Program-made: the position numbers and the translations under genes
Notes under the pieces: model-generated
The model's input: the letters and a program-made list of their open reading frames with translations, nothing else
Told to the model about the DNA's origin: nothing
The model's database searches: none
In this document: piece after piece, positions 19,526 to 48,915 of the stretch
How positions within the stretch are numbered: position 1 is the first letter of the stretch
Layout: each line of letters starts with the position of its first letter
DNA from: a virus
Virus record (IMG/VR): IMGVR_UViG_3300025703_000002
Span: 3,841-67,840 of that record
Reading direction: 5' to 3' (one strand)
Length of the DNA: 64,000 bases

Positions 19526-22264
19526 TTACCCAAAATAATGAAGCCTTCGTGACTGTTGTTTCTCGGGGCCGTACAGGAGCCTCTCGATACTCTGATGGCT
19601 CTCGTCTTTACGCTTGGCTAGATCCATTCTGCGGAGATGGATAATCCCGTTTATCATCGCGTCGGCGAGATCGTCATGAGCCCCACGGGGAAGAGAAGCA
19701 AGTTCGTCTTCTACGGGTTGAGCCCAGTCAGTGTCAGGACGCCAGATCAAACCATCGGCAAAAAGATGTTGGACTGTGTACGCCCTCGCAACCTTGTCCA
19801 TCCGGCCTGGGTCGTGTAACGCGACTGTCCAGGGTTCTCGGGAGAACAGCCGCCTCATTTCCTGTTCGACAGATATACCAGAGGCTTTGTTCTCTATGAT
19901 TAGTTTATCGACCTTGAACTTTCGGCAGTCGGCAGCAAGATGCTCGACGACTCCCCAGTTCTGTCTTTTCCGCTCCTCGAACTCTTCCTTGGTCTCTCCG
20001 TGCATCTTGACGATGTCGGTCCTACCGTGGAGGGTTAACCTCTTGTGCCACGCATGGATTAACATCAGACGAGGAGTACCGAACTGTTCTGAGTACCTTT
20101 GCTCTTGAGAGGTTTCTACCCAGGCCCCGATGATAACTAAGGCTGAGTAGTCGTTCTCTTTCTTCTCAGTAAAAGCGGTATCGGCAGAGGCTAGAATAAA
20201 CTCGAAAGGTGGGAACAACCCAGGCTTGACATCGTTGGCAGCCATAGCCTCCCGGTCCCAGATCTTCCAGTAGTCCCTCTTGATAATGCCGCCACCACGA
20301 GGCTCGGGCCGTTGTTGGTACTGACCTGCCCAAAGGTAGGGGCGGGTCTTATACGGGCCTAGGACGGAATCAGGATACTTCTCCGGCCACGCTAGTTCGC
20401 CGTCGTAGGTCCTAGGGTCTTTCCACCCGATACTCGTTTCACACCTTGGTTCCTGGAATTCCATCGGAACGCAGTTACCGCTTACTGAAACAATACCATT
20501 TCGGCGAACTACGAGAGCGGTAGAAGGAACACTAACACAGTATACAGTATCGTCGTAGGCAACGGACTTTATATTCTCCTTCCGAATCTTTGTATACCAC
20601 TTCCTCGGAAGACCCTCCATTTTACTCGTATGAATATAAAGGGTATAAATAAACCCCCCTGGAAGAATGTATCCATTGAAGGGCCTCTCCGGAATCTCCC
20701 GTCTTTTTTTACTCGCCGCCCAACCGGATTTGATACAACATTCTTGGATACCGTCTATCAACCTCTCTGAACGAGAAGACATTGTCAATCCGTTTCCATT
20801 TCGTCCCGCTGCACAACCATCACCTTTGACGAACGTAATGATAAAGAGTTTCAATAGGTCGGGGGAGAGACTCCGAATTATCGAGGGTACATATTTAGTA
20901 TGAGAATTCCCTAATGGTTCTAATGCCTCTGCGAGACTCTTACTACCTATTGCAAACTCAAGACAGCCTCCAGATTTACGGAGGGACTTTCGGAAATCGA
21001 ATGGAGAATTAATCAGAATTTGTTCGATCTCGTCTGCTAAGACCCCTGGCTTTTGAATGATACGGGTACAGCAAGACTTGACACTAGAGCATCCCTCACT
21101 CAGATACCATCCCATAAACTCGGCGAGAACTGATGATTTCCATATTTGACCCCCGAACATAATTTCTTCGGTGTCTGACCCCTTCCAGTTGACTGCTTGA
21201 GGGATATAGAAATCTTTCGGAAGATCTCTTGCAGGGGCAACACGCCAATCTGTTTTTTTATTAATCTTCCAATCATTCGGGATTTTATAAAGCATACGGT
21301 GGTCTGGGGTGACGAGAAGATCAGATGAGTTTGAAGAGTAATGAATCATTTCGCCAGTATACTTGTACGAAATGTACTTTGTGGGGAATTCCCACTGAGC
21401 TTGAAGAGTCTTGGGATTAACCGCTAAAATCTCGGAACAGACGACATTGTCTGGATTTAGATCTGAAAACTTTACCCATCCACAGCGAGTTAGAACTTCA
21501 GTCTCTTTGTCATAACAAAGATGTTCGTAATTGGGGTATTCCTCGATGATTACCCCAGAGACGTCTGACTCGTTGACCCTCTGGCCGAGGACGATAATAG
21601 CTCCGTCAGCGAGATCGTTCAGACGGTTCTGCATACTCTCTCGGAACCAGGTTACGGTGTCTCCCCGGACAAGTTCAGACTCTGCCTCAGATACTTTGTG
21701 GAGATCGTCAGCCAGAATTCTGTCGCCGCGCTCACCAGTTCCAACGCCCCCGACACTAGAAGCAAACTTCCAGCCTCGTGCTGTGTTAGATATTCGTCCA
21801 ACGCCTTCTTTTGTGACACGAACGAGTCTTCCATACAGCTCCTGGTATTCTTGAGATTGGACGAGATAGCAGAATTTCTCGTTGTCGCGCTCTGTAAGGG
21901 TTGAAGAGTACGAGAAGGAAACATACCGTAGATCGGGTCTCTCTCGGGGTCCCCATTCCCATGCCGGGAAGAAGACGTTAAGCATCATGGATTTCATGAA
22001 GCCGGGGGGGACGTTAATTAGGAGTCTCTTAAGGTCTCCGTCTGAGATCGCTTCTAGATGCTCTGCTATCGCAGCGATACACCAGCCTTCGACAAAAGGA
22101 ATAACTGGCTCTAGGACGTGCCAGAAGTACCGGATGAACTCAATTAAGCTGTCGCGGTGCAAGGCCCGCAACGATCTGAGTTCTGTCTCCCTCGTCGCTC
22201 GGGCTAATTCGAGCAACTCTCTCCTCGATAAAGGCTTTGAGTTCAATGTCAGATAACCTATCAA
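19526..22264 (-). CDS. terL: Terminase large subunit containing an intein
   Basis: RLLINVPPGFMKS, TGERGD.I.ADD, QYQQRP, DTAF..DYSA, IENKASG, HDDLADA. Confidence 0.95.
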   Translation of the reverse strand: MIGYLTLNSKPLSRRELLELARATRETELRSLRALHRDSLIEFIRYFWHVLEPVIPFVEGWCIAAIAEHLEAISDGDLKRLLINVPPGFMKSMMLNVFFPAWEWGPRERPDLRYVSFSYSSTLTERDNEKFCYLVQSQEYQELYGRLVRVTKEGVGRISNTARGWKFASSVGGVGTGERGDRILADDLHKVSEAESELVRGDTVTWFRESMQNRLNDLADGAIIVLGQRVNESDVSGVIIEEYPNYEHLCYDKETEVLTRCGWVKFSDLNPDNVVCSEILAVNPKTLQAQWEFPTKYISYKYTGEMIHYSSNSSDLLVTPDHRMLYKIPNDWKINKKTDWRVAPARDLPKDFYIPQAVNWKGSDTEEIMFGGQIWKSSVLAEFMGWYLSEGCSSVKSCCTRIIQKPGVLADEIEQILINSPFDFRKSLRKSGGCLEFAIGSKSLAEALEPLGNSHTKYVPSIIRSLSPDLLKLFIITFVKGDGCAAGRNGNGLTMSSRSERLIDGIQECCIKSGWAASKKRREIPERPFNGYILPGGFIYTLYIHTSKMEGLPRKWYTKIRKENIKSVAYDDTVYCVSVPSTALVVRRNGIVSVSGNCVPMEFQEPRCETSIGWKDPRTYDGELAWPEKYPDSVLGPYKTRPYLWAGQYQQRPEPRGGGIIKRDYWKIWDREAMAANDVKPGLFPPFEFILASADTAFTEKKENDYSALVIIGAWVETSQEQRYSEQFGTPRLMLIHAWHKRLTLHGRTDIVKMHGETKEEFEERKRQNWGVVEHLAADCRKFKVDKLIIENKASGISVEQEMRRLFSREPWTVALHDPGRMDKVARAYTVQHLFADGLIWRPDTDWAQPVEDELASLPRGAHDDLADAMINGIIHLRRMDLAKRKDESHQSIERLLYGPEKQQSRRLHYFG
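20474..21517 (-). mobile_element. Intein (348 aa) with LAGLIDADG homing endonuclease in TerL
   Basis: EHL|CYDKETEVLT..GW start, LLVTPDHRM block B, GWYLSEG and FVKGDG LAGLIDADG blocks, VYCVSVP..VRRNG..SGN|C end. Confidence 0.93.
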
Positions 22265-22709
22265 AATCTCCGGGTCCGCCTACTTCGACTTCCTTACGGT
22301 CACGCCAGGAGTCTCTACGACGGTTCTTGAGCCATATAAAGGCAGCGGCAGTGTCAGGTGGGCAGAACTCTCGGTATTCAACCTTAGTGCCATCGGCGAG
22401 GATCTTAACGGTGTCGTAGGAATACCCTATGGCTCGGTGATACAACGCCTGCTCGACACGCTCGTCTAGAGCCTCCTTACCTGTCTTACAGGCGTCAGAG
22501 AACTCAGGATACTGAATACGCCACCTCTCGACCTGACGGGTAGAGACAGAAAAGAAGTCGGCAAGCTCTACGTCAGTGGCCCCAAGGAGACACAACTTCT
22601 CTGCTTGGGGACAGAACTCAGGACGGAACTTAGACGGTGCTCCAGGCCCTCTGTCAGGTGTGCCGGCAGGGAGCTGCCTCTTCTCTGGGTCTTTAGCGTA
22701 CTTAGCCAT
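22140..22709 (-). CDS. terS: Terminase small subunit
   Basis: GAPSKF, GATD.ELADFF.VS....W...PEF, PPDTAAAFIWLKNR..WRD. Confidence 0.88.
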   Translation of the reverse strand: MAKYAKDPEKRQLPAGTPDRGPGAPSKFRPEFCPQAEKLCLLGATDVELADFFSVSTRQVERWRIQYPEFSDACKTGKEALDERVEQALYHRAIGYSYDTVKILADGTKVEYREFCPPDTAAAFIWLKNRRRDSWRDRKEVEVGGPGDFDRLSDIELKAFIEERVARISPSDEGDRTQIVAGLAPRQLN

Positions 22710-22717
22710 GTCTCTCC

Positions 22718-22933
22718 CTACTTTACGATGGACAACTTAGGCTTTGACGAAATGCTGGAGATCAAAGCTCGCCCCATCTCACACCCCAGGATATAAAGCG
22801 GAGACACAGGGTCTAGGTCGGAGATCCTTAGGATTAGAATTCCTAGAGCATCGGCTCTCTGGGATACCTCGTCAAAGTAGGGACAAGCAGTAGGAAAGGT
22901 GTCTTCAGCGGAGAGGACGAGGTCTTCACTCAA
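22718..22933 (-). CDS. Hypothetical protein
   Basis: RBS AAGGAG upstream. Confidence 0.55.
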   Translation of the reverse strand: MSEDLVLSAEDTFPTACPYFDEVSQRADALGILILRISDLDPVSPLYILGCEMGRALISSISSKPKLSIVK

Positions 22934-22944
22934 AGAGGTCTCCT

Positions 22945-23094
22945 TTATGAGAGAACTAAAATCTTTAGAGTTCCGATGTGTCGAATCCTGGCTGCGAGAA
23001 CTCTTCCCGACTCTTCTCGAACGACATCTTCATAATAGACATTAGTAGAATCTGGGAGATCTTTAAGAACTTTCTTGAGTTCGGAAACAGTCAT
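22945..23094 (-). CDS. Small hypothetical protein (49 aa, MTVSELKKVLKDLPDS...)
   Basis: Manually translated; MTV.EL...L..LP start common in phage small proteins. Confidence 0.55.
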   Translation of the reverse strand: MTVSELKKVLKDLPDSTNVYYEDVVREESGRVLAARIRHIGTLKILVLS

Positions 23095-23164
23095 CAACGA
23101 GTACCGTCTGCTTTGTAGTAGTGGGAGAAACAGAAAGGATTGTCGGTATCACAATTTCTATTGT

Positions 23165-23227
23165 TTAGAACAGGTAGGAACATCCACCTAGGCTAAGAAC
23201 AAAGACAAGGAGTAGGATTCGTCTCAT
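23165..23227 (-). CDS. Mini-lipoprotein ORF MRRILLLVFVLSLGGCSYLF (possibly frameshifted)
   Basis: Lipobox-like LGG-C after a basic and hydrophobic stretch. Confidence 0.4.
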   Translation of the reverse strand: MRRILLLVFVLSLGGCSYLF

Positions 23228-23297
23228 ATCACGTCCCTAAGTAAAGAACTCCGGGCCGGAACCTGGGCTACTCGGCGTACCTTACAGTGTGGAAAGA

Positions 23298-23400
23298 ATT
23301 GGGGAGGGCGCTACCTTCCAGAACGTAGCACCTAGGCGTCAGGTCTTACTGGTCTATCCCTGACAGAACGGACACTATTACTAGGCCGCGGCTCCCCAAA
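23298..23400 (-). ncRNA. Candidate structured RNA (multi-stem)
   Basis: TTGGGGAG/CTCCCCAA closing stem; CCTAG/CTAGG, GTCAGG/CCTGAC, GCTAC/GTAGC inner stems; no ORF. Confidence 0.45.
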
Positions 23401-23521
23401 CTAATTAATACTGGCTGCTATGATCTTAGCAAGGATATAAAATACTGCTCCAGAGACAATTGCTCCGAAGAGAACTCCTTCAAAGAAATGGATCATGGCT
23501 TCTCTTGGGTCTTAGAGAATG

Positions 23522-23640
23522 TGGTGGGCCTGTCACTGAGTCGTCCGGATATGGTGTGGTTAGGCCCATAATCCGGGGAGAGTATTGCTCCCTAGGGATA
23601 TAACCGAACCCCCTTAGAACGATCTAGTGACAGGCCCACA
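23522..23640 (-). ncRNA. Candidate structured four-way RNA ending in ACCA
   Basis: Perfect 14-bp closing stem 23524-23537/23626-23639 plus three inner hairpins. Confidence 0.55.
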
Positions 23641-23740
23641 TCTCGTAAAGGAGATGTTAGTCCATTGTTGCCACAAGAATCCCTAAGTGGGGTATGAAGG
23701 TTATCTTCCGAAGAGTTACAATCAATTAACTCTATAGATA

Positions 23741-23769
23741 ATTATATCATATTTTGGAGACAAAGTCAA
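23741..23769 (-). promoter_or_regulatory. Sigma70-type promoter of the late/virion operon
   Basis: TTGACT-N17-TATAAT on minus strand. Confidence 0.8.
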
Positions 23770-23992
23770 CCCCTAAATCGACGAAATCGTAAGAAAAGTA
23801 CAAAATAATACAAAAAAGATATAAATTTTATATCGGAGGATATATTTCTGGTGTGTTTCTACGGAAAGGTCGAATATTTTCCCAAAGTATATAAAAATTT
23901 TTACACAGAGCTGAATTGGAGTACCCGGCCCTAATAGAGGGGGGTACGGGGGGTCATCCCAAATCCCCTCCTGTGACATTCTTGCCACTAGA

Positions 23993-24073
23993 GAACATTC
24001 AGGGAACAATGCCCTAGCTTCCGGTCAGGACGAAGAGAAGACGAGTAGAACATAAAGAGAACATGAGGCGAAC
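23993..24073. promoter_or_regulatory. Alphaproteobacterial LexA-type boxes (GAAC-N7-GAAC)
   Basis: GAAC-attcagg-GAAC at 23993-24007; GAAC-ataaaga-GAAC-atgaggc-GAAC at 24048-24073. Confidence 0.6.
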
Positions 24074-24450
24074 CACAGTGACTCTTCAATGCTTTGACCT
24101 ACACGACGACGCTAAGACCTAGCCCTAGTCATGTGCTAGACGCTGGCACGAGGAATTACCGTCGTGTCCTGGCAAGTACCCTATAGAGCTTGCCGCGTCC
24201 TATGGCTCCCCTGATGACCTGTGACAGTCCGGTTGAGTCTTAGTGAAGCCCTCAACCTTAGGAGTATCTTGTTGTCCCGCCTAGTGAACCCTAGGCTCGG
24301 CTCCGGTCAAACCGGACGGATTGCATCCCCGGGACAACGCTATGACAGTCTCACACCTTCCCCCTTGTGTCAACACCGAATGTCCTTTTAAGATACGACA
24401 TAATGGAATACCTGGTATGTAATAAGATCATAGCTATCCGAAAGATTCCG

Positions 24451-24479
24451 CTTGACATTCCCTAGGAGCCTGCTATTCT
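24451..24479 (+). promoter_or_regulatory. Early sigma70-type promoter
   Basis: cTTGACA-N16-TATTCT with TGn extension, upstream of the first plus-strand gene. Confidence 0.65.
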
Positions 24480-24557
24480 CCTGATATTGCTTCACCTTGG
24501 AGCAATCCGGTTATTCCGGCTCTTCCGGTCTTAGCCCGAATTGTGCAGGAGGCCCTA

Positions 24558-24695
24558 ATGAACTACCGAGGCTTTATCATCCGATGTGATGCTCAAATGC
24601 CGGGCACCTTCTTACTCACGTATAAGGGCCGCCCTTGCGGACGCCAATGGTCCCTACAGGCCGCCAAAGGGCTCGTCGATCACATGCTCAGCTAG
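24558..24695 (+). CDS. Small early protein (45 aa, MNYRGFIIR...)
   Basis: RBS AGGAGG; manually translated. Confidence 0.6.
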   Translation: MNYRGFIIRCDAQMPGTFLLTYKGRPCGRQWSLQAAKGLVDHMLS

Positions 24696-24707
24696 TAGGG
24701 GATTGAA

Positions 24708-25019
24708 GTGGCACAAAGAATCACGAAAGCCTACCTCGAGGCTCAACTGGGAATCCTCTCGAAGCTCCTAGGCTGGGACTGCACGTCCGATATATGGACA
24801 GACGGTAAAGCCTGTGTCGGTCGGGTGTTTATAGAGTCCGGATCGAGGATCAACGGTCGATGGTGGCACATTACTATGATAAACAACGATACCGGAGGAG
24901 AGGCTAGGATCGCCTCCGAAGAAACTGCGAGGCACATGTCAATCCTTATCGACGGCATGATTAAAAGTGCCGCTGAAATGAACGCGAACATAAAAGGGGA
25001 ATCACATGCGGGAGTCTGA
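24708..25019 (+). CDS. Early hypothetical protein
   Basis: RITKAYLE start; RBS AGGGG. Confidence 0.6.
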   Translation: MAQRITKAYLEAQLGILSKLLGWDCTSDIWTDGKACVGRVFIESGSRINGRWWHITMINNDTGGEARIASEETARHMSILIDGMIKSAAEMNANIKGESHAGV

Positions 25020-25156
25020 GAATCCTTTCCACGGGCCGAAACTAACCATGGCTGATTATGCCGGCGATCTTGTCGCTGTAGGTGTCGTCTTTGTTACGAT
25101 CGCAGTCCTGGCCTTTGTCGCCCCGCACTATATGTTTTGGAGATAGGAGGATCAAA

Positions 25157-25273
25157 GTGATAACGGTCTATTTTAACCACGACATGCATATTGACTGCCC
25201 TACGGTCGTCGTGGCCCGTATCGTATGGGACTTGTTAGTCCAAAAATTTGAAATGCAATCCGAGAGGCCATAA
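25157..25273 (+). CDS. Small early protein
   Basis: GTG start after AGGAGG. Confidence 0.45.
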   Translation: MITVYFNHDMHIDCPTVVVARIVWDLLVQKFEMQSERP

Positions 25274-25422
25274 CGCTTTCGCTTTGCCGATTCGAAAGGA
25301 CCGGCTTTGCCAAGGTGTTAGGCCATACTTTCGTGGTCGCTTGACCTTGCTTAGGAGGATAAAATGCTACACTGTAGCCTAGCCGGATGGTTTATTTTCT
25401 ATCTCCTATTTATGAGGTAGAG

Positions 25423-25644
25423 ATGGATCACTGCGAAGACCTCAGGGGATTCTGCCGCGCGATGGTAGAAGCCGGATATATGCCTTTAGACGAGTACCTA
25501 CGGCGATATGGTGAAGACGTTCTGTCGCCTGCGCCTCTCACATTTGAGCGCCGTCACGGCATTAAGAGGCGCCTCGTCCAACTCCGTCTAGTTCCTCGGT
25601 TCGTCCCGCCTAAACATACGATAGGTGGCACCTATGACATTTAA
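25423..25644 (+). CDS. Early hypothetical protein
   Basis: GAGG RBS before MDHCEDL. Confidence 0.5.
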   Translation: MDHCEDLRGFCRAMVEAGYMPLDEYLRRYGEDVLSPAPLTFERRHGIKRRLVQLRLVPRFVPPKHTIGGTYDI

Positions 25645-26101
25645 CCTTCGTCGAGATCGCCGACTCCGCCAAGACTCCATCCCCGTCAGAGAGCTTGATA
25701 GGGTTGACGCCCTCGACCGCGAATCTTCGGTCCCGATGGCGTCTTGCTCTAACTGGCTAGTCAAAGGCTTCAAAGGAGGCGAGCGAGGAGGGACTAAGGG
25801 CTCGGGTAAAAAGGTCGGCGACGGGGTCGAAGCTAGGAACGCCTCTAGGAGTGGCTACCGTGACCGTGAGGAGCAATTCGCGGTCCTTAAGGCCAATGTC
25901 CTAGACCTTCGGCGGAAGCTCGCCAGAGATCCCCAGAACGCCGTTTTGATCCAGTTAAACAAGCGGCAGACGGCTACGCTCCAATGGCTTGCCGAATTGA
26001 TCGCCTCGAAAGACAATCTCATACGGGCCACGGTATCCCGCGACAAAACGGAAACACGTTCCGACCAGTTACAGCCTATCAAACGCCTCGAAAGGATTTA
26101 A
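25634..26101 (+). CDS. Early hypothetical protein
   Basis: AGGTGG RBS before MTFNLRR. Confidence 0.55.
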   Translation: MTFNLRRDRRLRQDSIPVRELDRVDALDRESSVPMASCSNWLVKGFKGGERGGTKGSGKKVGDGVEARNASRSGYRDREEQFAVLKANVLDLRRKLARDPQNAVLIQLNKRQTATLQWLAELIASKDNLIRATVSRDKTETRSDQLQPIKRLERI

Positions 26102-26102
26102 G

Positions 26103-26312
26103 ATGGCAGACCTTAAATATCCACCTTGCGCTTGCACGTTTGTTTCGATCGGCAAGCCTCTAAAGACAAATGGGTGTAAAATCCACGGCGATCTCCCCTT
26201 TCTTTGTTCGGAGTGTTCCTGTTCCGAGTATCGGCCTTCGAGGGCACCATTCGACCGCTCGCCCTGGCCTTTGTGTTCATGCGGCCATACCGCCCAGGAT
26301 CACACGGCATAA
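26103..26312 (+). CDS. Small Cys/His-rich (Zn-binding) protein
   Basis: CAC..CKIH..CSECSC..CSCGH...H. Confidence 0.55.
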   Translation: MADLKYPPCACTFVSIGKPLKTNGCKIHGDLPFLCSECSCSEYRPSRAPFDRSPWPLCSCGHTAQDHTA

Positions 26313-26990
26313 CCAAACCTTTTAGACCCTGCCTTAATTATGCCATATTAGGGTGATTTAAGGCAGTCCTAAGCGGTCACGGTGTAAACCGGAAGATGCT
26401 TTTAAGACTGGGCCTAGGCAGATACCTAGGGAATGTGATCTAGGCTACGTGCCAGTGTTCTGTTTGTCTATGTGTGGTAAGGATATAGTCCTAGGAATAT
26501 AGTCCTAATAGGATTTACCTAGAACGTACCCCGGAAACCAGGGCGTGCCCGAAAGGTCCGCTTAGTAACTTCCGCCACATGAGTCCGATAGCTTTCTGGA
26601 TAGCTCGGTCTCGCAAGAGGCCACCGCGCAAGTTGACACCTTGTGCAGCCACGCCCCTAGATCAATCGGGTTATTCCCGCCTGCCAGTAGGATTCGTCCC
26701 GCTGGCGGACAGAGTAAGTTAGGCTCTGTCAGCGCAATCTTTGTCCTTTGCGTGTTTCACGGCGTCTAAGTCGCAAGATGATAGTCGCTTGTTTAACGTG
26801 CATTTAATTGGGGGGATAGGGTGAGGGCAATAATCCTACATGCTACATTTGACCTTTCGGGGTCGCTGGCGTAGCATTAAACCGTTAGCGTCCCAAGACC
26901 CAGGGGCGGACTTGTCAGGAGTAGGTCCGGGTTCAGCGTCCTAGTCTTCTAACGGTTTAATCCTATGCCAGATAAAAATAGTTTGGTTTA
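26306..26990 (+). ncRNA. Candidate large (~680 nt) structured non-coding RNA
   Basis: No ORF of 60 aa or more in the track; many stems with GNRA/UUCG loops and long-range pairings (see findings). Confidence 0.7.
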
Positions 26991-27002
26991 GGGAAAATAG
27001 GG

Positions 27003-27031
27003 CTTGACACATCCGGTTAAGTCCTTATATT
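27003..27031 (+). promoter_or_regulatory. Sigma70-type promoter
   Basis: cTTGACA-N16-TATATT followed by a leader hairpin GGCATAG..CTATGCC. Confidence 0.65.
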
Positions 27032-27148
27032 CGTATCACCTTCAAGTGGCATAGCGTTTAGGGCATTTTTAGTGTCTTAGACCCTATGCCAAGGCTTAGG
27101 GGCGGTTCAATCCTGATCCGTCGTTTCGCTAAAAGTAAGGTTACGCAA

Positions 27149-27859
27149 ATGTCTGTTTTCAAAGATATCAAGATTCTCGACAGGTCACTCGTGACTTTCG
27201 GGCGTACCTACAAAGAAAATCGGGAGCTTGCTCACGATCTTGCCGTTTCGGTGATGTATCACACTGCGGCGCACCGTCAGCTCTCCCCTAAGGATCGGTC
27301 AGACAAGCTTCACCGCTTTTACGACATTCTGAAAAAGGCCGATCAAGACGCTTTCCGCCAATGGGCTTCGGCGCTTGTCACTTGGAAGATCCAAGAGAAC
27401 GGCAAGGAAGTGACGAAGCGTTGGCTCTCAGGCTCGCGTGACGAAGCCGGACTCTTTGCCTTCAAGATCATCGAAGGGACAAAGGTTCAATCGGATCAAT
27501 TCGCGGCAGATATCGACCGTATTGATTCTCTGCCGAGTTTCTTCGATCATGAACCCTCAAGCCGGCCTCCGGGATTTTTTGGAGATACAGAGCTTCTAAA
27601 GGCTCTGAAAAATCTTTTAAAGAAAGCCTCGGACGGGCGGAAAGAAAATCGAATCTCTGACACGGTTTTCAACATCGTCGAGATCGCCGAGCTGCAAATC
27701 GAGAAGAGCCTGCAATCGACCGGAAGGCCTCTAGGCGAGAGTCAACCGGCTTCAATCGTTCCTCCGGCGGACCTTTCGAAAGCTCAAGAATCTCAAGCCA
27801 AGACTGCCCGTCACGGTGGCAAGGCTCTTGAGGCGAAAGAGGAAAAGGTTGCGGCTTAG
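27149..27859 (+). CDS. Early hypothetical protein
   Basis: Likely start MSVFKD; own promoter. Confidence 0.7.
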   Translation: MSVFKDIKILDRSLVTFGRTYKENRELAHDLAVSVMYHTAAHRQLSPKDRSDKLHRFYDILKKADQDAFRQWASALVTWKIQENGKEVTKRWLSGSRDEAGLFAFKIIEGTKVQSDQFAADIDRIDSLPSFFDHEPSSRPPGFFGDTELLKALKNLLKKASDGRKENRISDTVFNIVEIAELQIEKSLQSTGRPLGESQPASIVPPADLSKAQESQAKTARHGGKALEAKEEKVAA

Positions 27860-28032
27860 TTTCATGAATTAGGTGCTACACGAGCAAGCTCTTGTGAAGA
27901 TCGCCGCCTAATTAACTCCCCCCGGTTTTCTCTAGGGTTCCTGAGTCGGAGCTTTAGAGGAAACCGGGGCTTTTCTGCGTCCAGATTTCGAGACTTTGAA
28001 AGGGGCCTCTTGGCCCTTTGTCTTTTCCGACT

Positions 28033-28355
28033 GGTGGCCACATAGGTGGCCCATAAATCCAATCTTCGAAGGTATGAGAGGGTCCTGTGGTCATAACGGT
28101 TTACGTCACTGAAACAGATATCGAGAGCGGCCGGAAGTATACTCTCACGTCTTGTCCTATTGCGTTCGCCCTGTCTCGAATCACTAGAAAAAGGATTAGT
28201 GTCGGGGCGCGACGTTTTCGTGAAGTGGGGATGAGTACCGACTATCCCCTACCTGCCTCGGCAGTTAGTTTTATTGCTGCGTTTGATCTTGGGAAAGAGA
28301 TTCATCCGTTTTCCTTTAAGGTTAATATCTAGGTGGCCCCATAGGTGGCCCCATG
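28033..28355 (+). repeat. Two tandem pairs of GGTGGCC(a/c)CAT repeats flanking one ORF
   Basis: Copies at 28033, 28045, 28332, 28344. Confidence 0.75.
28087..28332 (+). CDS. Hypothetical protein
   Basis: VT..DI..G....CPIA.AL..FI..FD.G..P.SF small phage protein pattern. Confidence 0.65.
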   Translation: MVITVYVTETDIESGRKYTLTSCPIAFALSRITRKRISVGARRFREVGMSTDYPLPASAVSFIAAFDLGKEIHPFSFKVNI

Positions 28356-28538
28356 GCTTGGTAACGAAGATTTTCATGCCGCACATAGAAGCAATCTTCT
28401 CCGTAAAGACCCCGGATGGTACTCTAAGTTCTCGTGGTCTGAATCCACGGATCTGCCTTATCTTTGGCCGGTTTAATCGGGGGATCACGATAAGACTCTA
28501 TTAGCTAAGTTCCACCTAGGATTTAACAGGAGGGGAAG

Positions 28539-28769
28539 ATGGCACTATCCGTTGCGTCGACGGCCAACGACTACATGCAGGAATTATTCAAGACTCCGGC
28601 GAGGGCTATGGTCTTGTTTTTAGACGTGTCCAAAGATCTCCCGTGGAAAGACCGATTGCGTCTTCAAGTTCAGGTCAACACGGTGTCTAAGTGTCTCTCG
28701 TGTATCCCTGCCGACGATCTTGTTCCGGCCATAAAATGGCTTCGGGCAATGTCCGGCCAGAATGCCTAA
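28539..28769 (+). CDS. Hypothetical protein
   Basis: RBS AGGAGG. Confidence 0.6.
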   Translation: MALSVASTANDYMQELFKTPARAMVLFLDVSKDLPWKDRLRLQVQVNTVSKCLSCIPADDLVPAIKWLRAMSGQNA

Positions 28770-28904
28770 GGAGGTTTGAATGTTGTCGGATAATGATTTG
28801 GTTTGCGCCGTCTTCGCTGTTCTAGTCATCCCTTTGTGCATTCTAATTGGATACGTAGCCTACCTAGATCACCGCCATTTAAGGTGAACCTAAAGGAGAA
28901 TCTA

Positions 28905-29222
28905 ATGCAAGTCTCGGATCTTAAAGTCGGCGACAAGTTCACTTTTGAGTATACCGTGAAGTGCTGCCACGACGCCGGAGTCCGTTGCGAGGCCTCGAAT
29001 GGGGATATCCTCCGATTTAGCAAATATGAAAGAATCCATTCCCGGACGTATCGGGCCTCGATTCCGATAAAAGTCGGGGATATCGTAAGAAGCGCTCATC
29101 TTTGTCAGAGTCAGCGGTACGAGGTTCTCGGAATTAACGGGACACTTGTCTGGATACGCGATCTTAACACCTCCCAGTATCATACGGACCATCTAGTGGA
29201 CTTTACGCTTGACAACTCTTGA
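28905..29222 (+). CDS. Tandem SH3/KOW-like protein (paralogue family member 1)
   Basis: VSDLKVGDKF..IKVGDIV..YEVLGI.G..VWIR. Confidence 0.6.
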   Translation: MQVSDLKVGDKFTFEYTVKCCHDAGVRCEASNGDILRFSKYERIHSRTYRASIPIKVGDIVRSAHLCQSQRYEVLGINGTLVWIRDLNTSQYHTDHLVDFTLDNS

Positions 29223-29262
29223 AAAGTATGATACCCTATTTATACCTTCCAAGGGGTATACC
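29209..29262 (+). promoter_or_regulatory. Promoter module copy 1
   Basis: TTGACA-N17-TACCCT (TGn) plus TATACC..GGTATA hairpin; similar to the module at 39423. Confidence 0.65.
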
Positions 29263-29403
29263 TAGGTTCCCATACCTTGGATTCTAACAGGGGGTAATTG
29301 CAAATGTATAAAGATGCTATCGTAGCTGTTTGTCTAGGACTATTTGCAGGCTTGATGACTTACGCCATAATCTCTATTCTCGTGCATTAAATAGGGGATT
29401 GAA

Positions 29404-29676
29404 ATGCTACACAAGTTTTACGTGGGGTCCCGCGAGACGGGCATTGCATGTATGCAGATCTACGGGGATTCGAAGAAAGAGGCTATCCAACGTCTAATCA
29501 AAATGACAGGCGGGGAGATCCCCTTTGTCTACTTCAATTCAGTTAATGGGGTTGACGTGGTTTCCGATGTACTCCACGAGGAATCTTCGGTAACAGCCCT
29601 AGAGCCGACTCCTCACGCCTATATCTGTCAACAAGCGATGAGGCAGGAACGGAACTCTCTAAAAGAGATTCTTTAG
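29404..29676 (+). CDS. Hypothetical protein
   Basis: RBS AGGGG. Confidence 0.55.
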   Translation: MLHKFYVGSRETGIACMQIYGDSKKEAIQRLIKMTGGEIPFVYFNSVNGVDVVSDVLHEESSVTALEPTPHAYICQQAMRQERNSLKEIL

Positions 29677-29837
29677 GAGCCTCAAATGAACCTTCAGGAA
29701 TACCTTAAGGCAGACCGGCAATGGCCTAGATATCTGAGGATATCCCACGCCCGGCATAAGCTTAAGATCTCTGAGACCGTCGAGGACAAGATTTTCTGGA
29801 ATGCCGTCCTTTTGGCAAATTACAGACATTAACAGTT

Positions 29838-29956
29838 TGGTGCGGCCTCGTCGGGAGGGGCGTGGTTCGAGTCCACGGGAAGCTTGGAGGGTTGGCGGTT
29901 CGATTCCGTCACTGTAGGGATGGTCCCATAGAGGTTCGATTCCTCTCCCGCACCAA
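29838..29956 (+). ncRNA. tRNA-like RNA with three T-arms and no anticodon arm
   Basis: TGGTGCGG/CCGCACCA closing stem; three 5-bp stems with TTCGA(G/T)T 7-nt loops. Confidence 0.75.
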
Positions 29957-29966
29957 TTTATTATAG

Positions 29967-29992
29967 GAGCCCTTGTGGGCTCTTTTCTTTTT
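29967..29992 (+). terminator. Rho-independent terminator
   Basis: GAGCCC-ttgt-GGGCTC followed by TTTTCTTTTT. Confidence 0.8.
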
Positions 29993-30004
29993 ATAGGAAA
30001 ATAA

Positions 30005-30916
30005 ATGGAAGCAGACGTTACCGGGGAGGCAGTCTCGTCTGCCTTAAAGTTCCTCGAACAGGATTCAAAGAAAAGTGGAGCACTAAACCGGTGGTCTTTT
30101 GTTCATCCCAGTGGAAAAAGATTTGATCGTTCCGGGCCGTGTTTTTGGGAACTTAGACCTGAAGCAAACAATCGTGAGGTGTCGCCCCCTACCGGATGTC
30201 TCACTGTGACCTATTCGGGGGGACACGGCGCGTATTCAAACGGAGTTAAGTACGAATATGGCGACGACTCCAAAGATTTTGTTGAGTTTCTTGTCGGTCC
30301 TGAGAGTCCGTGGAGATCTTCATTAGTTCCGTTTCTGGTTTTTAAAGATCCTAAGAAGATCTTTGACGATCGCGGGTTTATCTTCGGAAATCTCTCCGAG
30401 ATTAACTTCCTCGTCTTAAAGAACTTCTTGATTGCGACACGGATGTGCATGGAGTTCCCGAATAAGTTCCAGGTGATGAAGACTTTGATCTCTAAAGGAG
30501 TCTCAAGATTTGACTCTTATATTACGGCTCAGAGCTTCTCGACAGTAGGCGGGACATTTAACGTGTCATATCAATCTGGACACGAACCCTTCTCGTCCCA
30601 CGAGATGGCACTCCTTATCGATCGACTTCGATCAGGAGAGGTTAACGGGACACACAAATCTTTTTATGGTGGCAAGGAGATTAAGACTGTTTCGTGTTTT
30701 CTGTCATTTTCGTCGCCGTTTTATTCCGAGATCCCTCGGCAGATAAAATCGATCTATGACGTGTCCTCGCCTTCTCTAGAGGTTCTTCTTAAATACGCCA
30801 AGTCCCTTAGTGATAATGTCCCGGAAGTTTCCGGAACACCAGAGCCACGAAAGAAGCGAATGCCTGTCTGTATCAATCGAGGGCCCTTCGAGGCTAAAGA
30901 GGAGATTGACTTTTGA
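30005..30916 (+). CDS. Hypothetical protein heading the amidoligase cluster
   Basis: 303 aa, coupled to the amidotransferase gene. Confidence 0.65.
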   Translation: MEADVTGEAVSSALKFLEQDSKKSGALNRWSFVHPSGKRFDRSGPCFWELRPEANNREVSPPTGCLTVTYSGGHGAYSNGVKYEYGDDSKDFVEFLVGPESPWRSSLVPFLVFKDPKKIFDDRGFIFGNLSEINFLVLKNFLIATRMCMEFPNKFQVMKTLISKGVSRFDSYITAQSFSTVGGTFNVSYQSGHEPFSSHEMALLIDRLRSGEVNGTHKSFYGGKEIKTVSCFLSFSSPFYSEIPRQIKSIYDVSSPSLEVLLKYAKSLSDNVPEVSGTPEPRKKRMPVCINRGPFEAKEEIDF

Positions 30917-31560
30917 AGAACAGTGTTTACGTCGTCGATGGAGATTATCTTATCGAGAAGATGTTTCGGAAACGTGGGTACTTCCTTACAGACACCCCTG
31001 ACGGGGCGGAAATCCTAGTTTTTACTGGAGGTCATGACGTGACTCCTAGTTATTACGGAATGGGCCGTCATCCGACTACGTCTAACTCTGAGGCCAGAGA
31101 TTCAAGGGAGAAGACGTTCTTTCTCGAATCAGAGGGAAAACTTCGTGTCGGAATCTGCCGGGGATCTCAGTTCCTTTGTGTAATGAACGGCGGAACGCTG
31201 TATCAAGACGTTGATGGCCACTGTAACGGCCCACATAATCTGATTTATACAGACGACACCGGGAAAGACTCCGTCATCACGGTCACGAGTACACATCACC
31301 AGATGATGCGACCAAGCTATGCTGCCGATCCTAACGGTGGCTACAACTACCGTCTTTGGGGTTTTGCTGCTGAAAGTTCGTATCGCAATTTTGAACCCCG
31401 AGACCACCAAAAACCGACTCAATCCGAGGAAGGTCCTGACTCGGAGATCGTATTTTTCCCCGAGACTCGTTCGTTATGCTTTCAGGGCCATCCTGAGTAT
31501 GACCTTAAATCCTGTGAAGACCTTTTCTTCTCCTGTCTTAATCGCGCCCTTTCGTATTAA
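30913..31560 (+). CDS. Class I glutamine amidotransferase (peptidase C26-like)
   Basis: FTGGHDV.P..Y, GICRGSQ, STHHQMM, FQGHPE triad. Confidence 0.9.
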   Translation: MKNSVYVVDGDYLIEKMFRKRGYFLTDTPDGAEILVFTGGHDVTPSYYGMGRHPTTSNSEARDSREKTFFLESEGKLRVGICRGSQFLCVMNGGTLYQDVDGHCNGPHNLIYTDDTGKDSVITVTSTHHQMMRPSYAADPNGGYNYRLWGFAAESSYRNFEPRDHQKPTQSEEGPDSEIVFFPETRSLCFQGHPEYDLKSCEDLFFSCLNRALSY

Positions 31561-31575
31561 TCAAAGGATTTCTGA

Positions 31576-32880
31576 ATGTGTGGACTTACAGCAGCATACG
31601 CGTCTGATCTTCGTTTGAATGAGCTTGGAGTTCTTAGGACTCTTCTCCAATTGTCTGATTTCCGGGGCGGCTACGGGGCAGGTGAAGTTTCGGTTAACAA
31701 GAAAGGCGAGATTCATTTCATTAAAGATCATTTCTCTGCCTATGATCTTGTGAATACAAAGTCATTCAACGACCGAATGAAAGAAGATATCTCCCTCGTC
31801 ATAGGTCATTCTAGATACCCTACAAAAGGCAAGGAGAATCGGACTAACGCCCATCCCCACAGTACCGCAAAAGTCATCGGGGTCCATAACGGGACGATGC
31901 AGGCCGTGATGGAGAAGCCTGTGACGTCTACCGAGAGCGATTCAAAGACTCTCTTCGAGGCTGTATCTAATTTTGGCATCGAGGAGGTTATCTCAAAATC
32001 TCCTGGGGCCTATGCGTTAATGTGGGTCGATAAAGAAGCCAAAGAATTCAGGATTCTCAGAAACCACGAGAGACCACTTTTCTTCGCCAAGATTAAACCG
32101 TTTGTGAGTTCAAAAGACAATGAATTCCGAAGTCTCTTTCTCTCGTCTGAGAAACGTATGCTTCAATTCGCTCTTGACCGACACGGCCTTCTCAACGAAG
32201 CGGTTCTAGGAGAGGTTATCACGAACAAGATGATTTGCTTTCCTCTGTGTCCCGAACCAGGGTTTCTACCCGAACCTACGGCAGTAATTATCCCAGAGTG
32301 TAGAAGGCACTACTATTCGAAGTCGTCAGAATGGTATAAAGATCGTGAATGGGATTCAACGACGCATTCGTTTATAGAACACAACGAAAATCGAATGACG
32401 TGGCGAGACGGTCAATTCTATGACGTAACTCCGGCCGGTGTCGAGATTCCTTGGTCGAAGCAGAAGACTGCTGCTAGTCCAGTTACTGGCGCGGGGAAGA
32501 ACGTCGTCCTATTCGGTTCTAAGGCGGATACGGCAATTCCGACCCCTCTTGAGAAGGAGATTCTTAGAAAGCAAAAGCTTCAATTTCCCGACGATGCAAA
32601 AGTCTCTCTTCCAGACATTGGAGTCGAGACAGATTTCTCAGACGAGTCGATTCTCCTTAAAGAGACTTCTAAGGGAAATTGGGTGGCGTTGAGGGTATAC
32701 CAAGAATACCTCGAATCAGGATGCTCGTGGTGTTCTAAACCGTTGTCTCTCCACGAGGCGAGGAATAAGAAAACAGCTCCGCACTTCTTCAGTAAGGCTG
32801 AATTTTTGTGCTCAGACTGCCAGAAATCCGAGGATGCTTCGTACCTAGTCGGACTTGATTATACAAAGGCCCTTCAATGA
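31576..32880 (+). CDS. Class II (Ntn) glutamine amidotransferase with C-terminal Zn finger
   Basis: MCGL start, IGHSRYPT.G..NAHP, GVHNGT, DS, GAYAL, RN.ERPL; CSWC..CSDC. Confidence 0.9.
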   Translation: MCGLTAAYASDLRLNELGVLRTLLQLSDFRGGYGAGEVSVNKKGEIHFIKDHFSAYDLVNTKSFNDRMKEDISLVIGHSRYPTKGKENRTNAHPHSTAKVIGVHNGTMQAVMEKPVTSTESDSKTLFEAVSNFGIEEVISKSPGAYALMWVDKEAKEFRILRNHERPLFFAKIKPFVSSKDNEFRSLFLSSEKRMLQFALDRHGLLNEAVLGEVITNKMICFPLCPEPGFLPEPTAVIIPECRRHYYSKSSEWYKDREWDSTTHSFIEHNENRMTWRDGQFYDVTPAGVEIPWSKQKTAASPVTGAGKNVVLFGSKADTAIPTPLEKEILRKQKLQFPDDAKVSLPDIGVETDFSDESILLKETSKGNWVALRVYQEYLESGCSWCSKPLSLHEARNKKTAPHFFSKAEFLCSDCQKSEDASYLVGLDYTKALQ

Positions 32881-33683: not shown

Positions 33684-33696
33684 TTAAGGTCTCAAA

Positions 33697-34896: not shown

Positions 34897-34915
34897 TTCC
34901 TAATAGGAGGTTCGG

Positions 34916-45097: not shown

Positions 45098-45393
45098 GCT
45101 TTGACACAATCGCAATTCTTAAGGACAACGAATTGCTTCGCGCCGAAATCACCCGCCTCACCGAAGCGCTTGAGAAGGCAATGAAGAAGATAGAGAAGAT
45201 GCGGGAGACCAGCTTTGTTGCTCAGGTGACAATCGAACAGATGCGTCCTTACTTCACACACTGGGACAGTCAAGTGCGAGGGCACGGTCCCCAGTCGTCG
45301 ATATGGCATACCAGCGACACGCCAGTAACCTACAAACATCATGAAGCCGTGCTCGCCGCCCTCGTGTCTCCCGCCGAGAAGGATTCACAATGA
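45094..45393 (+). CDS. Hypothetical coiled-coil protein
   Basis: Coupled ORF. Confidence 0.5.
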   Translation: MSFDTIAILKDNELLRAEITRLTEALEKAMKKIEKMRETSFVAQVTIEQMRPYFTHWDSQVRGHGPQSSIWHTSDTPVTYKHHEAVLAALVSPAEKDSQ

Positions 45394-48574: not shown

Positions 48575-48915
48575 CACCACAAGAGAAACGGCGTGATTCT
48601 TATCTTAAGAGAATGTATGGAATCACGCTAAAGGACTTCAACCGGATCTTAAAGGATCAGAAAGGTTGCTGCCCGGTATGCCTCAGGAAGTTCAGAGACC
48701 TCCCAGGGACCCCCCATGTCGATCATAATCACCTGACGGGGGAGATTCGCGGCCTACTCTGCGCATATGACAACCATAGAGTCGTTGGTAGACACAGAGA
48801 TCCTGAACTCCTCCGGCGTGTGGCAGATTATGTAGAAGGTCCTCATACGGGGTTCTTTGCCCCTAAGAAGAAGAGAAATGGGAAAACGAAGCGACTTCCA
48901 AAGAAAACCTCGTGA
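48571..48915 (+). CDS. Endonuclease VII-like protein
   Basis: YGIT..F...Q.G.C.VC, HVDHNH.TG.IRGLLC. Confidence 0.85.
   Translation: MTPQEKRRDSYLKRMYGITLKDFNRILKDQKGCCPVCLRKFRDLPGTPHVDHNHLTGEIRGLLCAYDNHRVVGRHRDPELLRRVADYVEGPHTGFFAPKKKRNGKTKRLPKKTS

What the first reader, a model, noticed from the sequence alone, without database searches (positions are those of the whole stretch)
26306..26990. ~680-nt densely structured non-coding RNA in the early region
Seen in sequence: an ORF-free stretch in an otherwise gene-dense genome, almost fully foldable. Long-range pairs: AACCAAAC (26311)/GTTTGGTT (26981) and CTAAGCGG (26369)/CCGCTTAG (26558). Local stems: CTGCCTTAA (26329)/TTAAGGCAG (26358), GACAGAGT/GCTCTGTC, ATGCTAC/GTAGCAT, and a perfect 12-bp TTAAACCGTTAG (26877)/CTAACGGTTTAA (26949). 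Stable tetraloops on the + strand: CGGT-GTAA-ACCG, CC-GAAA-GG, GGTCTC-GCAA-GAGGCC, GGA-TTCG-TCC, GACCT-TTCG-GGGTC. GNRA/UUCG loops and G-U pairs point to a + strand RNA. Established: phages carry large ornate RNAs (GOLLD, ROOL) of mostly unknown function. Inference: a new or divergent large phage RNA, possibly a ribozyme or scaffold. The duplicated GGA(A)TATAGTCCTA resembles the group I intron S element, but a full intron core was not found.
Basis: partly seen in the sequence, partly recalled or inferred. Interest (0 to 1): 0.85.

Follow-up and report, generated by a model that had tools for sequence, protein, structure and literature searches.

The report
Orphan hairpin-rich spacer in phage early region
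A gene-free stretch of about 0.7 kb between two early transcription units of an uncultured peat phage is predicted to fold into a chain of unusually stable RNA hairpins, but no relative of it could be found, so whether it is a new functional RNA or a structured spacer remains open.

Summary
The stretch 26313-27085 holds no ORF above 47 aa. It folds better than shuffles (z -5.9 on +, -9.5 on -). After GC correction it is the most stable of 184 same-size windows on the + strand, but only by 2.8 SD.

About two thirds of the excess stability is shared by both strands. The strongest signal is one 106-nt Y-shaped hairpin (26866-26971, 22 bp plus one mismatch). The 8-bp long-range pairs are at chance level and change with the fold boundaries.

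A strong sigma-70-type promoter (27004-27031) lies just after the element. No terminator lies inside it, and the only promoter-like match is a weak 9/12 one.

Rfam 15 gives nothing: no group I intron, GOLLD, ROOL, RNase P or tmRNA. No homologue turned up in GenBank phages, in 163 loci of portal relatives, or in ten of their records searched in full. Covariation is therefore untestable.

Best reading (about 0.4): an untranslated, hairpin-rich trailer or spacer of the early transcript, with RNase III-type stems flanking the next gene. A new stand-alone large RNA stays possible (about 0.2).

The parts
24452..24479 (+). Promoter P1 (TTGACA-16-TATTCT, TG-extended), start of the first rightward block of small ORFs (24543-26312)
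   Evidence: 10 of 12; context. One of 5 CTTGACA promoters on the + strand.
26103..26312 (+). Last gene of the P1 block: a 69-aa Cys-rich protein with AAGGA upstream of its ATG. Its TAA stop ends at 26312.
   Evidence: no Pfam or PHROG family.
26313..27003 (+). ORF-free, hairpin-rich untranslated stretch. This is the finding, with bounds reset to stop codon through promoter.
   Evidence: no ORF above 47 aa; z -5.9 and -2.7; rank 1 of 184 on +.
26329..26366 (+). Hairpin of 9 + 4 bp (CUGCCUUAA / UUAAGGCAG)
   Evidence: mean pair probability 0.91 for the 9-bp helix and 0.63 for the 4-bp helix; I14.
26380..26391 (+). CGGU-GUAA-ACCG hairpin with a GNRA loop
   Evidence: (p 0.94).
26413..26444 (.). 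Cluster CCTAGG-N6-CCTAGG-N8-TCTAGG. A further CCTAGG lies at 26490. Three of the window's 16 CCTAGG sites are in the element.
26478..26507 (+). Tandem 14-nt unit (TAAGGATATAGTCC / TAGGAATATAGTCC), the 'S-element-like' motif. The second copy folds with 26510-26522.
   Evidence: D4; (helices 26491-95/26518-22 and 26501-06/26510-15).
26607..26646 (+). Two adjacent hairpins: GGUCUC-GCAA-GAGGCC, and GCGCAAG / CUUGUGC
   Evidence: (p 0.74 and 0.97).
26682..26730 (+). Two adjacent hairpins: 7 + 3 bp capped by UUCG, and GACAGAGU / GCUCUGUC
   Evidence: p 0.92, 0.90, 0.78.
26749..26802 (+). Extended hairpin of 8 + 4 + 3 + 3 bp with a GCAA apex
   Evidence: p 0.86-0.98.
26866..26971 (+). Hairpin A, a Y-shaped 106-nt element. 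The basal stem is 9 + 13 bp around one mismatch. Two apical arms carry loops holding ACCC and GGGU.
   Evidence: I1; z -5.0 on both strands, 0 of 200 shuffles; p 0.88 and 0.98. It is the most complementary (91%) of the 9 local inverted repeats with arms of 17 nt or more that were reported for the 64-kb window.
27004..27031 (+). Promoter P2 (TTGACA-16-TATATT), 33 nt after hairpin A
   Evidence: 11 of 12, the best + strand match in 22000-30500.
27047..27091 (+). Hairpin B in the P2 leader: 8 + 12 bp with a 3-nt loop. Its base, TGGCATAG / CTATGCCA, resembles that of hairpin A.
   Evidence: I3; p 0.97 and 0.96; leader 27038-27160 has z -4.5, 0 of 200.
27149..27859 (+). Gene p236 (236 aa, function unknown). 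The start is set by the SD-like AAGG and by the conserved N-terminus of its only homologue, P0002.
   Evidence: Pfam gives only a sub-threshold DUF1175 match; the AF2 model is poor, pLDDT 40.7.
27921..28019 (+). Two terminator-like hairpins ending the P2 unit: a 20-bp stem plus GCTTTTCT, and an 8-bp stem plus GTCTTTTCC
   Evidence: I4.

Best explanation
The stretch is the untranslated, hairpin-rich 3' trailer or inter-unit spacer of the first early transcript, and it acts in cis.

Proposed course of events. Host RNA polymerase starts at P1 (24452) and reads the small early genes. It meets no canonical terminator after the stop at 26312 and so transcribes the 0.7-kb stretch. The resulting chain of stable, partly GNRA- or UUCG-capped hairpins does two things. 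It protects the early mRNA from 3' exonucleases, and it leaves Rho no unstructured C-rich loading site.

Hairpin A has a 22-bp stem. Hairpin B, in the P2 leader, has a 20-bp stem. Both are long enough to be RNase III-type processing sites. Cutting there would separate the P1 message from the p236 message and give each a defined, hairpin-protected end. P2 then supplies p236 independently.

Shown here: the anatomy, the predicted stability, the partial strand bias and the promoter and terminator map. Inferred: that the stretch is transcribed, that RNase III cuts it, and that it stabilises or insulates.
For: 1. Position. The stretch starts at the stop codon of the last P1 gene and ends 33 nt before the best + strand promoter match of the region (27004, 11 of 12). 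The scan lists no terminator-like site between 26313 and 27003 on either strand, and only a 9/12 promoter-like match at 26849 inside hairpin A. Canonical terminators do exist in this phage right after p236 (27921-27968 and 28000-28019).

2. Architecture. The confident helices (pair probability above 0.7) are about a dozen local hairpins. The long-range helices change with the fold boundaries.

3. Long stems. Three of the 9 long local inverted repeats reported for the 64-kb window lie in 26866-27969: hairpin A, hairpin B and the terminator stem. They flank p236. Hairpins A and B share the base TGGCRTAG / CTATGCCA, and 4 of the window's 9 TATGCCA copies lie in 26339-27091.

4. Strand. From 26601 to 27300 the + strand is far more stable than the - strand (for example -114.4 against -82.8 kcal/mol for 26801-27100), and that window is the top + strand outlier of all 300-nt windows (z -3.97). 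The minimum-energy folds hold more G-U pairs on + than on -: 27 against 21 overall, 10 against 4 in 26673-26860, and 7 against 2 in the P2 leader.

5. Composition. G exceeds C over most of the stretch, so it does not resemble a Rho loading site.

6. No known RNA family matches.
Against: - No transcript data exist. No RNA run was listed, and the only holder is one DNA run that may be the source sample.
- 690 nt is about ten times what processing sites need. This is recalled: T7 RNase III sites are about 60 nt.
- About two thirds of the excess stability is the same on both strands. The residuals against the GC regression are about -39 kcal/mol on + and -27 on - (my arithmetic). The 5' half shows no strand preference. 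DNA-level inverted repeats would therefore explain much of the signal.
- Four complete relatives (portal 45-51% identical) have no ORF-free gap above 302 nt, including one with the same GC content (50.7%). The spacer is thus not a requirement of this phage group.
- The enrichment of GNRA and UUCG loops fits a selected RNA fold at least as well as it fits a passive spacer.
- RNase III specificity cannot be predicted from stem length alone.
Confidence: 0.4

Rival explanations
1. A new, lineage-specific stand-alone large structured RNA of about 0.55-0.7 kb. It would be released from the early transcript, for example by cuts at hairpin A, and would act in trans during host takeover as a decoy, scaffold or ribozyme.
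For: - It is the best GC-corrected + strand fold of 184 windows.
- No shuffle folds as well: 0 of 20 and 0 of 100.
- 4 of 14 + strand tetraloop hairpins are GNRA or UNCG, against a 4.4% background. Both + strand hairpins with a stem of 6 bp or more in the element are of this kind, out of only 6 such in the whole window.
- The two apical loops of hairpin A hold complementary ACCC and GGGU (by reading), a possible loop-loop contact.
- No known family matches, so it would be new.
Against: - It has no terminator of its own, and the only promoter-like site inside is a 9/12 match.
- Long-range helices are unstable in prediction.
- z is only -2.8 against real sequence.
- The - strand folds nearly as well over the 5' 550 nt.
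- No homologue was found, so there is no covariation.
- There is no expression data.
Confidence: 0.22
2. Non-functional or weakly functional DNA: the decayed remnant of one or more early genes, or a recent insertion that brought promoter P2. Its structure would be incidental.
For: - The stretch is an orphan. No DNA match was found in 50,697 GenBank phage records, in 163 loci of portal relatives, or in ten of their records searched in full.
- The whole early region 22700-30000 shares no tblastx hit with those loci, so this part of the genome turns over fast.
- A 9-nt direct repeat TTAGACCCT, each copy followed by TATGCCA, brackets 26322-27091 (D8, D9). That resembles a target duplication.
Against: - Phage genomes are compact, and four complete relatives carry no comparable gap.
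- By my arithmetic about 3 exact 9-mer repeats are expected by chance in 1.3 kb, and no terminal inverted repeats beyond chance were seen (I2, 15 of 19).
- Decay does not predict the best + strand fold of the genome, nor the tetraloop enrichment.
- No translated similarity to any protein was seen in the relatives' loci.
Confidence: 0.2
3. A DNA-level element: an array of operators for a phage or host DNA-binding protein that recognises CCTAGG-type palindromes, or a replication origin. The hairpins would then be by-products of inverted repeats in the DNA.
For: - Most of the excess stability is the same on both strands.
- CCTAG occurs 6 times in the element against 0.63 expected from the rest of the window.
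- 3 of the window's 16 CCTAGG sites lie in the element, and three CTAGG sites there are spaced 12 and 14 bp apart.
- 11 of the 16 CCTAGG sites lie in 23187-29261, and one sits in the spacer of promoter P1.
Against: - The CTAG count was made post hoc. CTAG contains a stop codon, so it is expected to be commoner in ORF-free DNA.
- No CCTAGG lies near P2.
- The 3' third is clearly + strand specific.
- No iterons or AT-rich unwinding block typical of origins were found. The only tandem repeat has two copies.
- No candidate binding protein was identified.
Confidence: 0.13
4. A divergent member of a known RNA family: a group I intron, GOLLD, ROOL, RNase P, tmRNA or a similar family.
For: Only the resemblance of AAGGATATAGTCC to the group I S element. 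The consensus is recalled, not taken from a tool.
Against: - Rfam 15 gave 0 hits at gathering. Three permissive scans listed only 5 matches (4 distinct, since the DENV_SLA match appears), to unrelated families, with E 2.4-7.8.
- ARAGORN finds no tRNA or tmRNA there.
- The flanks are two complete genes.
Confidence: 0.02

Closest known systems
RNase III processing hairpins between the early genes of coliphage T7 (R0.3 to R1.3). Recalled knowledge, not from a call.
   Same: Both are long, nearly continuous stems in untranslated positions of a host-polymerase early transcript, and both bracket individual messages. Hairpins A (22 bp) and B (20 bp) have the length RNase III needs.
   Different: T7 sites are single hairpins of about 60 nt. 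Here they sit at the end of a further 550 nt of hairpin-rich RNA. There is no sequence similarity, and cleavage has not been tested.
Lambda sib retroregulation. Recalled knowledge.
   Same: In lambda, a hairpin is complete only in read-through transcripts from an upstream promoter, so transcripts from two promoters meet different fates. Here hairpin A is present only in P1 read-through RNA and not in P2 RNA.
   Different: sib lies downstream of the regulated gene and is a single RNase III site. Nothing here shows that p236 or the P1 genes are regulated in this way.
GOLLD and ROOL, large ornate RNAs often found in phages. Rfam families; PMC12286853 and PMC5737381 were seen only as search listings and abstract starts.
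   Same: The size class (0.5-0.8 kb), a phage setting and a tRNA-like gene within 3 kb.
   Different: No covariance-model match. No conserved multi-helix junctions can be shown. The predicted fold is beads on a string. No homologues are available.
Group I intron, S element (J8/7-P7'). The consensus is recalled.
   Same: A 12-13-nt sequence resemblance (AAGGATATAGTCC), present twice in tandem.
   Different: There is no core, no R partner, no exons and no model hit.
Stabilising 3'-UTR hairpins and REP-like intercistronic stem-loops of bacterial operons. Recalled knowledge.
   Same: Stable stem-loops in untranslated RNA after a stop codon, without a U tract.
   Different: Those are short, repeated families. 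This is a unique 0.7-kb array (1 copy in its genome).

Membership tests
Group I intron | Conserved catalytic core (P3-P9) detectable with the family covariance model | tested here: not met
   Rfam 15: 0 hits at gathering. No intron family appeared at E up to 10 in 26000-27300 or 26300-26700.
Group I intron | Interrupts a gene, with flanking exons that join into one product | tested here: not met
   The left flank is a complete 69-aa ORF with its own stop. The right flank has its own SD and ATG, and its N-terminus MSV... is conserved in P0002.
Group I intron | An upstream P7 5' strand (R element) complementary to the S-like TAGTCC | tested here: not met
   By reading, no GGACTA occurs in 26313-26478. 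The consensus used is recalled.
GOLLD / ROOL / OLE / HEARO / raiA large RNAs | Match to the family covariance model | tested here: not met
   none listed at E up to 10.
GOLLD / ROOL-like ornate RNA (as a kind) | Conserved multi-junction architecture supported by covariation | not testable with these tools
RNase III processing site (T7 early type) | About 20 bp or more of near-continuous double-stranded stem in an untranslated intercistronic position | tested here: met
   Hairpin A has 9 + 13 bp around one mismatch. Hairpin B has 8 + 12 bp. Pair probabilities are 0.88-0.98. z is -5.0 for hairpin A and -4.5 for the 123-nt P2 leader that contains hairpin B.
RNase III processing site (T7 early type) | Actual cleavage by RNase III | not testable with these tools
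   This needs an in vitro assay or an rnc+ / rnc- comparison.
Rho-independent terminator | G+C-rich stem followed directly by a U tract | tested here: not met
   No terminator-like site lies in 26313-27003 on either strand. Hairpin A is followed by AUAAAAAUAG.
tRNA / tmRNA | Cloverleaf or tmRNA structure recognised by ARAGORN | tested here: not met
   the only call in the window is at 29829-29919.
Stand-alone ncRNA gene | Own promoter and own terminator | tested here: not met
   Only a 9/12 promoter-like match at 26849-26877, inside the 5' arm of hairpin A, and no terminator. Promoter types other than sigma-70 are not covered by the scan.

The most novel reading that the evidence does not exclude
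A previously unseen, lineage-restricted large structured RNA of about 0.55-0.7 kb on the + strand. It would be made early by host polymerase and released from the P1 transcript at the 22-bp stem of hairpin A. It would fold around GNRA- and UUCG-capped helices and a Y-shaped 3' domain with a loop-loop contact. It would act in trans during host takeover, for instance as a decoy for a host RNA-binding or defence protein. It would be a new RNA class with no relation to GOLLD, ROOL or introns.
Probability: 0.2. Interest if true: 0.7.

Novelty: new member of a known kind. Interest (0 to 1): 0.3.

Why it matters
If the stretch is only a structured trailer with processing hairpins, it is an ordinary, if unusually long, example of how phages shape early messages. 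It would mainly help in annotating this uncultured phage.

If it is a discrete RNA, it would add a large phage RNA class from a soil or peat lineage in which none is known. It would also be a candidate for RNA-based host takeover or counter-defence.

The case also shows the limit of single-sequence evidence. The fold ranks first in its genome, yet only by 2.8 SD. Without homologues the question cannot be settled by computation.

Tried and rejected
KNOWN FAMILIES. Rfam at gathering on the whole window and at E up to 10 on three sub-ranges gave only chance hits: TB11Cs4H1, DENV_SLA, MIR4378 and DLG2-AS1_2, with E 2.4-7.8. ARAGORN found nothing there.

HOMOLOGUES OF THE DNA.
- blastn 'distant' against 50,697 phage records: no match.
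- blastn (word size 7), nhmmer and tblastx against first 80 and then 163 loci of portal relatives: nothing at E up to 1; only short hits with E 0.66-8.
- Whole-record DNA search in ten relatives' records: only 14-34-nt matches with E 0.28-0.52 in 2 of 10.
- Exact-pattern scans of viral contigs and genome contigs: 0 matches.
- This scan's own index: 0 look-alikes.

HOMOLOGUES VIA NEIGHBOURING GENES.
- p236 has one homologue, P0002 (64% identity, on a 5,668-bp contig).
- p236 alone or alignment A1 found no locus in viral contigs, metagenome contigs or genome contigs.
- p236 was absent from 5 of 5 relatives' records.
- p158 found none, and the DNA polymerase found none.

NATURAL VARIANTS. One run holds the stretch, as one identical contig with 0 differences. 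No RNA holder was listed.

OTHER CHECKS.
- Internal duplication: local self-alignments were no better than shuffles (score 19, against 15.6 with sd 2.0 and maximum 22).
- Recoding: with TAG=Q a 142-aa frame opens with 4 TAG codons, but its translation is Arg/Cys/Ser-rich junk. TGA=W gives nothing.
- A mobile element with target duplication and terminal inverted repeats: the repeats are at chance level (my arithmetic).
- Positional analogues: four complete relatives have no comparable ORF-free gap.
- Function of the neighbour p236: only a sub-threshold DUF1175 match in Pfam, no PHROG, feature neighbours in the Atlas that are unnamed viral clusters, and an AF2 model with pLDDT 40.7, too poor for a fold search.
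- Literature: two searches, read as listings and abstract starts only. No paper was opened and no supplements were requested. I make no claim that the element is or is not in print.
Full report
SETTING.
The window is bases 3841-67840 of a 67,840-bp IMG/VR virus record with direct terminal repeats, rated 100% complete. Only one public run holds the element, a peat metagenome that may be the source sample.

Gene content points to a podophage distantly related to phiEco32/SU10-type and roseophage-type viruses:
- an SU10-type portal, a large terminase, a T7-like primase-helicase and a family A DNA polymerase;
- a phiEco32-like amidoligase and glutamine-amidotransferase cluster;
- a best cultured DNA polymerase relative at only 36% identity, from Lentibacter and Roseobacter phages.

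Structural genes run leftward from about 22.7 kb. Rightward genes start near 24.5 kb. Five host-type promoters sharing CTTGACA sit on the + strand at 24451, 27003, 29208, 39422 and 46652.

THE OBSERVATION.
Between the stop of a 69-aa gene (26312) and the start of the next gene (27149, fixed by an AAGG Shine-Dalgarno and by the conserved N-terminus of its one homologue), no ORF exceeds 47 aa and none looks real. Reading TAG or TGA as sense does not rescue a gene.

The last 145 nt of the gap belong to the next unit. These are promoter P2 at 27004-27031 (TTGACA-16-TATATT, 11 of 12) and a structured leader (z -4.5). The element proper is therefore 26313-27003.

IS THE FOLDING MORE THAN CHANCE?
Against dinucleotide shuffles, yes, and on both strands:
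- 26306-26990: z -5.9 on + and -9.5 on -, with 0 of 20 shuffles as good.
- 26313-26865: z -2.7 on + and -3.0 on -, with 0 of 100.

Against real sequence of the same genome the answer is more sober. Among 184 windows of 685 nt, with MFE regressed on GC, the element ranks first on + (z -2.83) and third on - (z -2.28).

With 300-nt windows, the top + strand outlier of the whole window is 26801-27100 (z -3.97). From 26601 to 27300 the + strand is much more stable than the - strand. The 5' half (26301-26700) is only z -1.0 to -1.7 on either strand.

By sub-domain:
- hairpin 26860-26978: z -5.0 on both strands;
- 26325-26672: z -2.4 on + and -3.3 on -;
- 26673-26860: z -2.3 on + and -0.8 on -.

The minimum-energy folds contain 27 G-U pairs on + and 21 on -.

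Stable tetraloops are enriched on +. Four of 14 hairpins with a stem of 4 bp or more and a 4-nt loop are GNRA or UNCG, against 63 of 1429 (4.4%) in the window. On - the count is 2 of 12. Both + strand hairpins in the element with a stem of 6 bp or more are of this kind, out of six such in the whole window.

ARCHITECTURE.
A partition-function fold of 26290-27150 gives about a dozen confident local hairpins, listed under parts. The long-range closures differ from those of the 685-nt fold: 26310-26325 pairs with 27129-27143, and 26368-26374 pairs with 27094-27100.

By my arithmetic, about 3.6 perfect 8-bp complements are expected by chance in 685 nt. The 12-bp perfect stem of hairpin A (about 0.01 expected) does.

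Hairpin A (26866-26971) is Y-shaped, with a basal stem of 9 + 13 bp. It has the highest arm complementarity (91%) of the nine local inverted repeats with arms of 17 nt or more that were reported for the window. Three of those nine lie in 26866-27969: hairpin A, hairpin B (27047-27091) and the 20-bp terminator stem at 27921-27968.

Hairpins A and B share the base TGGCRTAG / CTATGCCA. Four of the nine TATGCCA copies in the window lie in 26339-27091. No significant internal duplication exists.

SIGNALS.
Inside 26313-27003 the scan finds no terminator-like site on either strand. It finds only a 9/12 promoter-like match (26849-26877), which lies in the 5' arm of hairpin A. Canonical terminators occur right after the next gene.

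The simplest transcript model is therefore that P1 transcripts run through the element, and probably on into p236 until 27968. P2 transcripts start after the element.

KNOWN FAMILIES.
Rfam 15 gives no hit at gathering in the window. Permissive scans give only chance hits. ARAGORN finds nothing there.

The group I hint fails three features that define the family: no core hit, no partner for the S-like motif, and complete genes rather than exons on both flanks (see Membership tests).

RELATIVES.
The search for homologous DNA was the main effort, and it failed.
- The neighbour gene p236 has a single homologue, P0002 (64% identity, on a 5,668-bp contig).
- Searches with p236, with alignment A1, with p158 and with the polymerase found no locus in the viral, metagenome or genome collections.
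- The portal has many relatives, the best non-self at 83% and several at 74%.
- An alignment of 40 portals retrieved 80 viral and 80 metagenome loci, with the best at 74% and 69% identity.
- None of the 163 loci (about 1.73 Mb) shows any tblastx hit to window 22700-30000, or any blastn or nhmmer hit to 26250-27150.
- Whole-record searches of ten relatives' records gave only chance matches.
- The two closest contigs are not syntenic. Genes upstream of their terminase lie on the same strand.
- Four complete relatives (45-51% portal identity; GC 50.7-64.6%) have no ORF-free gap above 302 nt. This window has three: 839, 576 and 769 nt.
- The one run that holds the element shows a single identical contig.

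Covariation, the test that would decide the matter, therefore cannot be done with what was reachable.

READING.
I put about 0.4 on a cis-acting untranslated trailer or spacer of the early transcript. Its hairpins would stabilise and insulate messages. Its two stems of 20 bp or more would be RNase III-type processing sites bracketing p236. This is analogous to the T7 early region and, in its promoter-dependent logic, to lambda sib. Both comparisons are recalled, not tested.

The rivals are:
- a discrete new large RNA (0.22), which the tetraloop enrichment and the genome-top fold keep alive;
- a functionless remnant or recent insertion (0.2), in line with the fast turnover of this region;
- a DNA-level operator array or origin (0.13), suggested by the strand-symmetric part of the stability and by the clustering of CCTAG and CCTAGG;
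- a divergent known family (0.02).

VERDICT.
The claim of a single ornate 680-nt RNA or ribozyme is not supported by anything beyond single-sequence folding, and the group I link is rejected.

Interest is moderate to low (0.3) until homologues or transcripts are seen.

Noticed in passing
window 19526-22264 (- strand): The large terminase is 911 aa. Relatives align to residues about 36-304 and 597-909 only, and their ORFs are 563-578 aa. This gene therefore carries an insert of roughly 300-350 aa, probably an intein. PHROG hits to intein-bearing families (thymidylate synthase, PhoH-like) fall inside it.
   Followed up: partly
window 22934-23772 and 24010-24585: Two further large ORF-free gaps (839 and 576 nt) lie in the divergent control region. 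23401-23900 is the strongest - strand folding outlier of the window (z -4.2) and is also strong on +. A 39-nt-arm inverted repeat lies at 23524-23639, downstream of the leftward promoter at 23769-23741.
   Followed up: partly
window 23187-29261: 11 of the window's 16 CCTAGG sites lie in this 6-kb early region, mostly in non-coding DNA. One sits in the spacer of promoter P1 (24461) and one just downstream of the promoter at 29208 (29261). This may be an operator motif, or restriction-site avoidance elsewhere in the genome.
   Followed up: partly
window 29829-29919: ARAGORN calls a 91-nt tRNA-Ser (anticodon cga). Rfam at gathering reported no family at all in the window, not even tRNA. The gene is therefore atypical.
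   Followed up: no
window 45390-45887, 47218-47739, 48571-48915: A stand-alone PNKP-type phosphatase domain protein (E 2e-28), a Dam-type adenine methyltransferase and an endonuclease VII. The PNKP domain hints at RNA or tRNA end repair. No ligase was recognised among the proteins scanned.
   Followed up: no
window 30913-36555: A phiEco32-like cluster: Peptidase_C26 and GATase_6 amidotransferases, COOH-NH2 ligase type 2 and Amidoligase_2.
   Followed up: partly
window 27038-27160: In the predicted fold of the P2 leader, the first bases of the transcript (ACCUU) pair with the Shine-Dalgarno region of p236 (AAGGU, 27137-27141) around hairpin B. In a fold that includes upstream RNA, the same region pairs instead with 26310-26325. 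This may be translational control, but it rests on a single-sequence prediction.
   Followed up: no
records G003, G007, G008, G009 (loci L165-L177): Complete relatives of this phage (portal 45-51% identical) have no ORF-free gap above 302 nt, including one with the same GC content (50.7%). The 2.2 kb of non-coding DNA at 22.9-27.1 kb is therefore peculiar to this lineage.
   Followed up: partly
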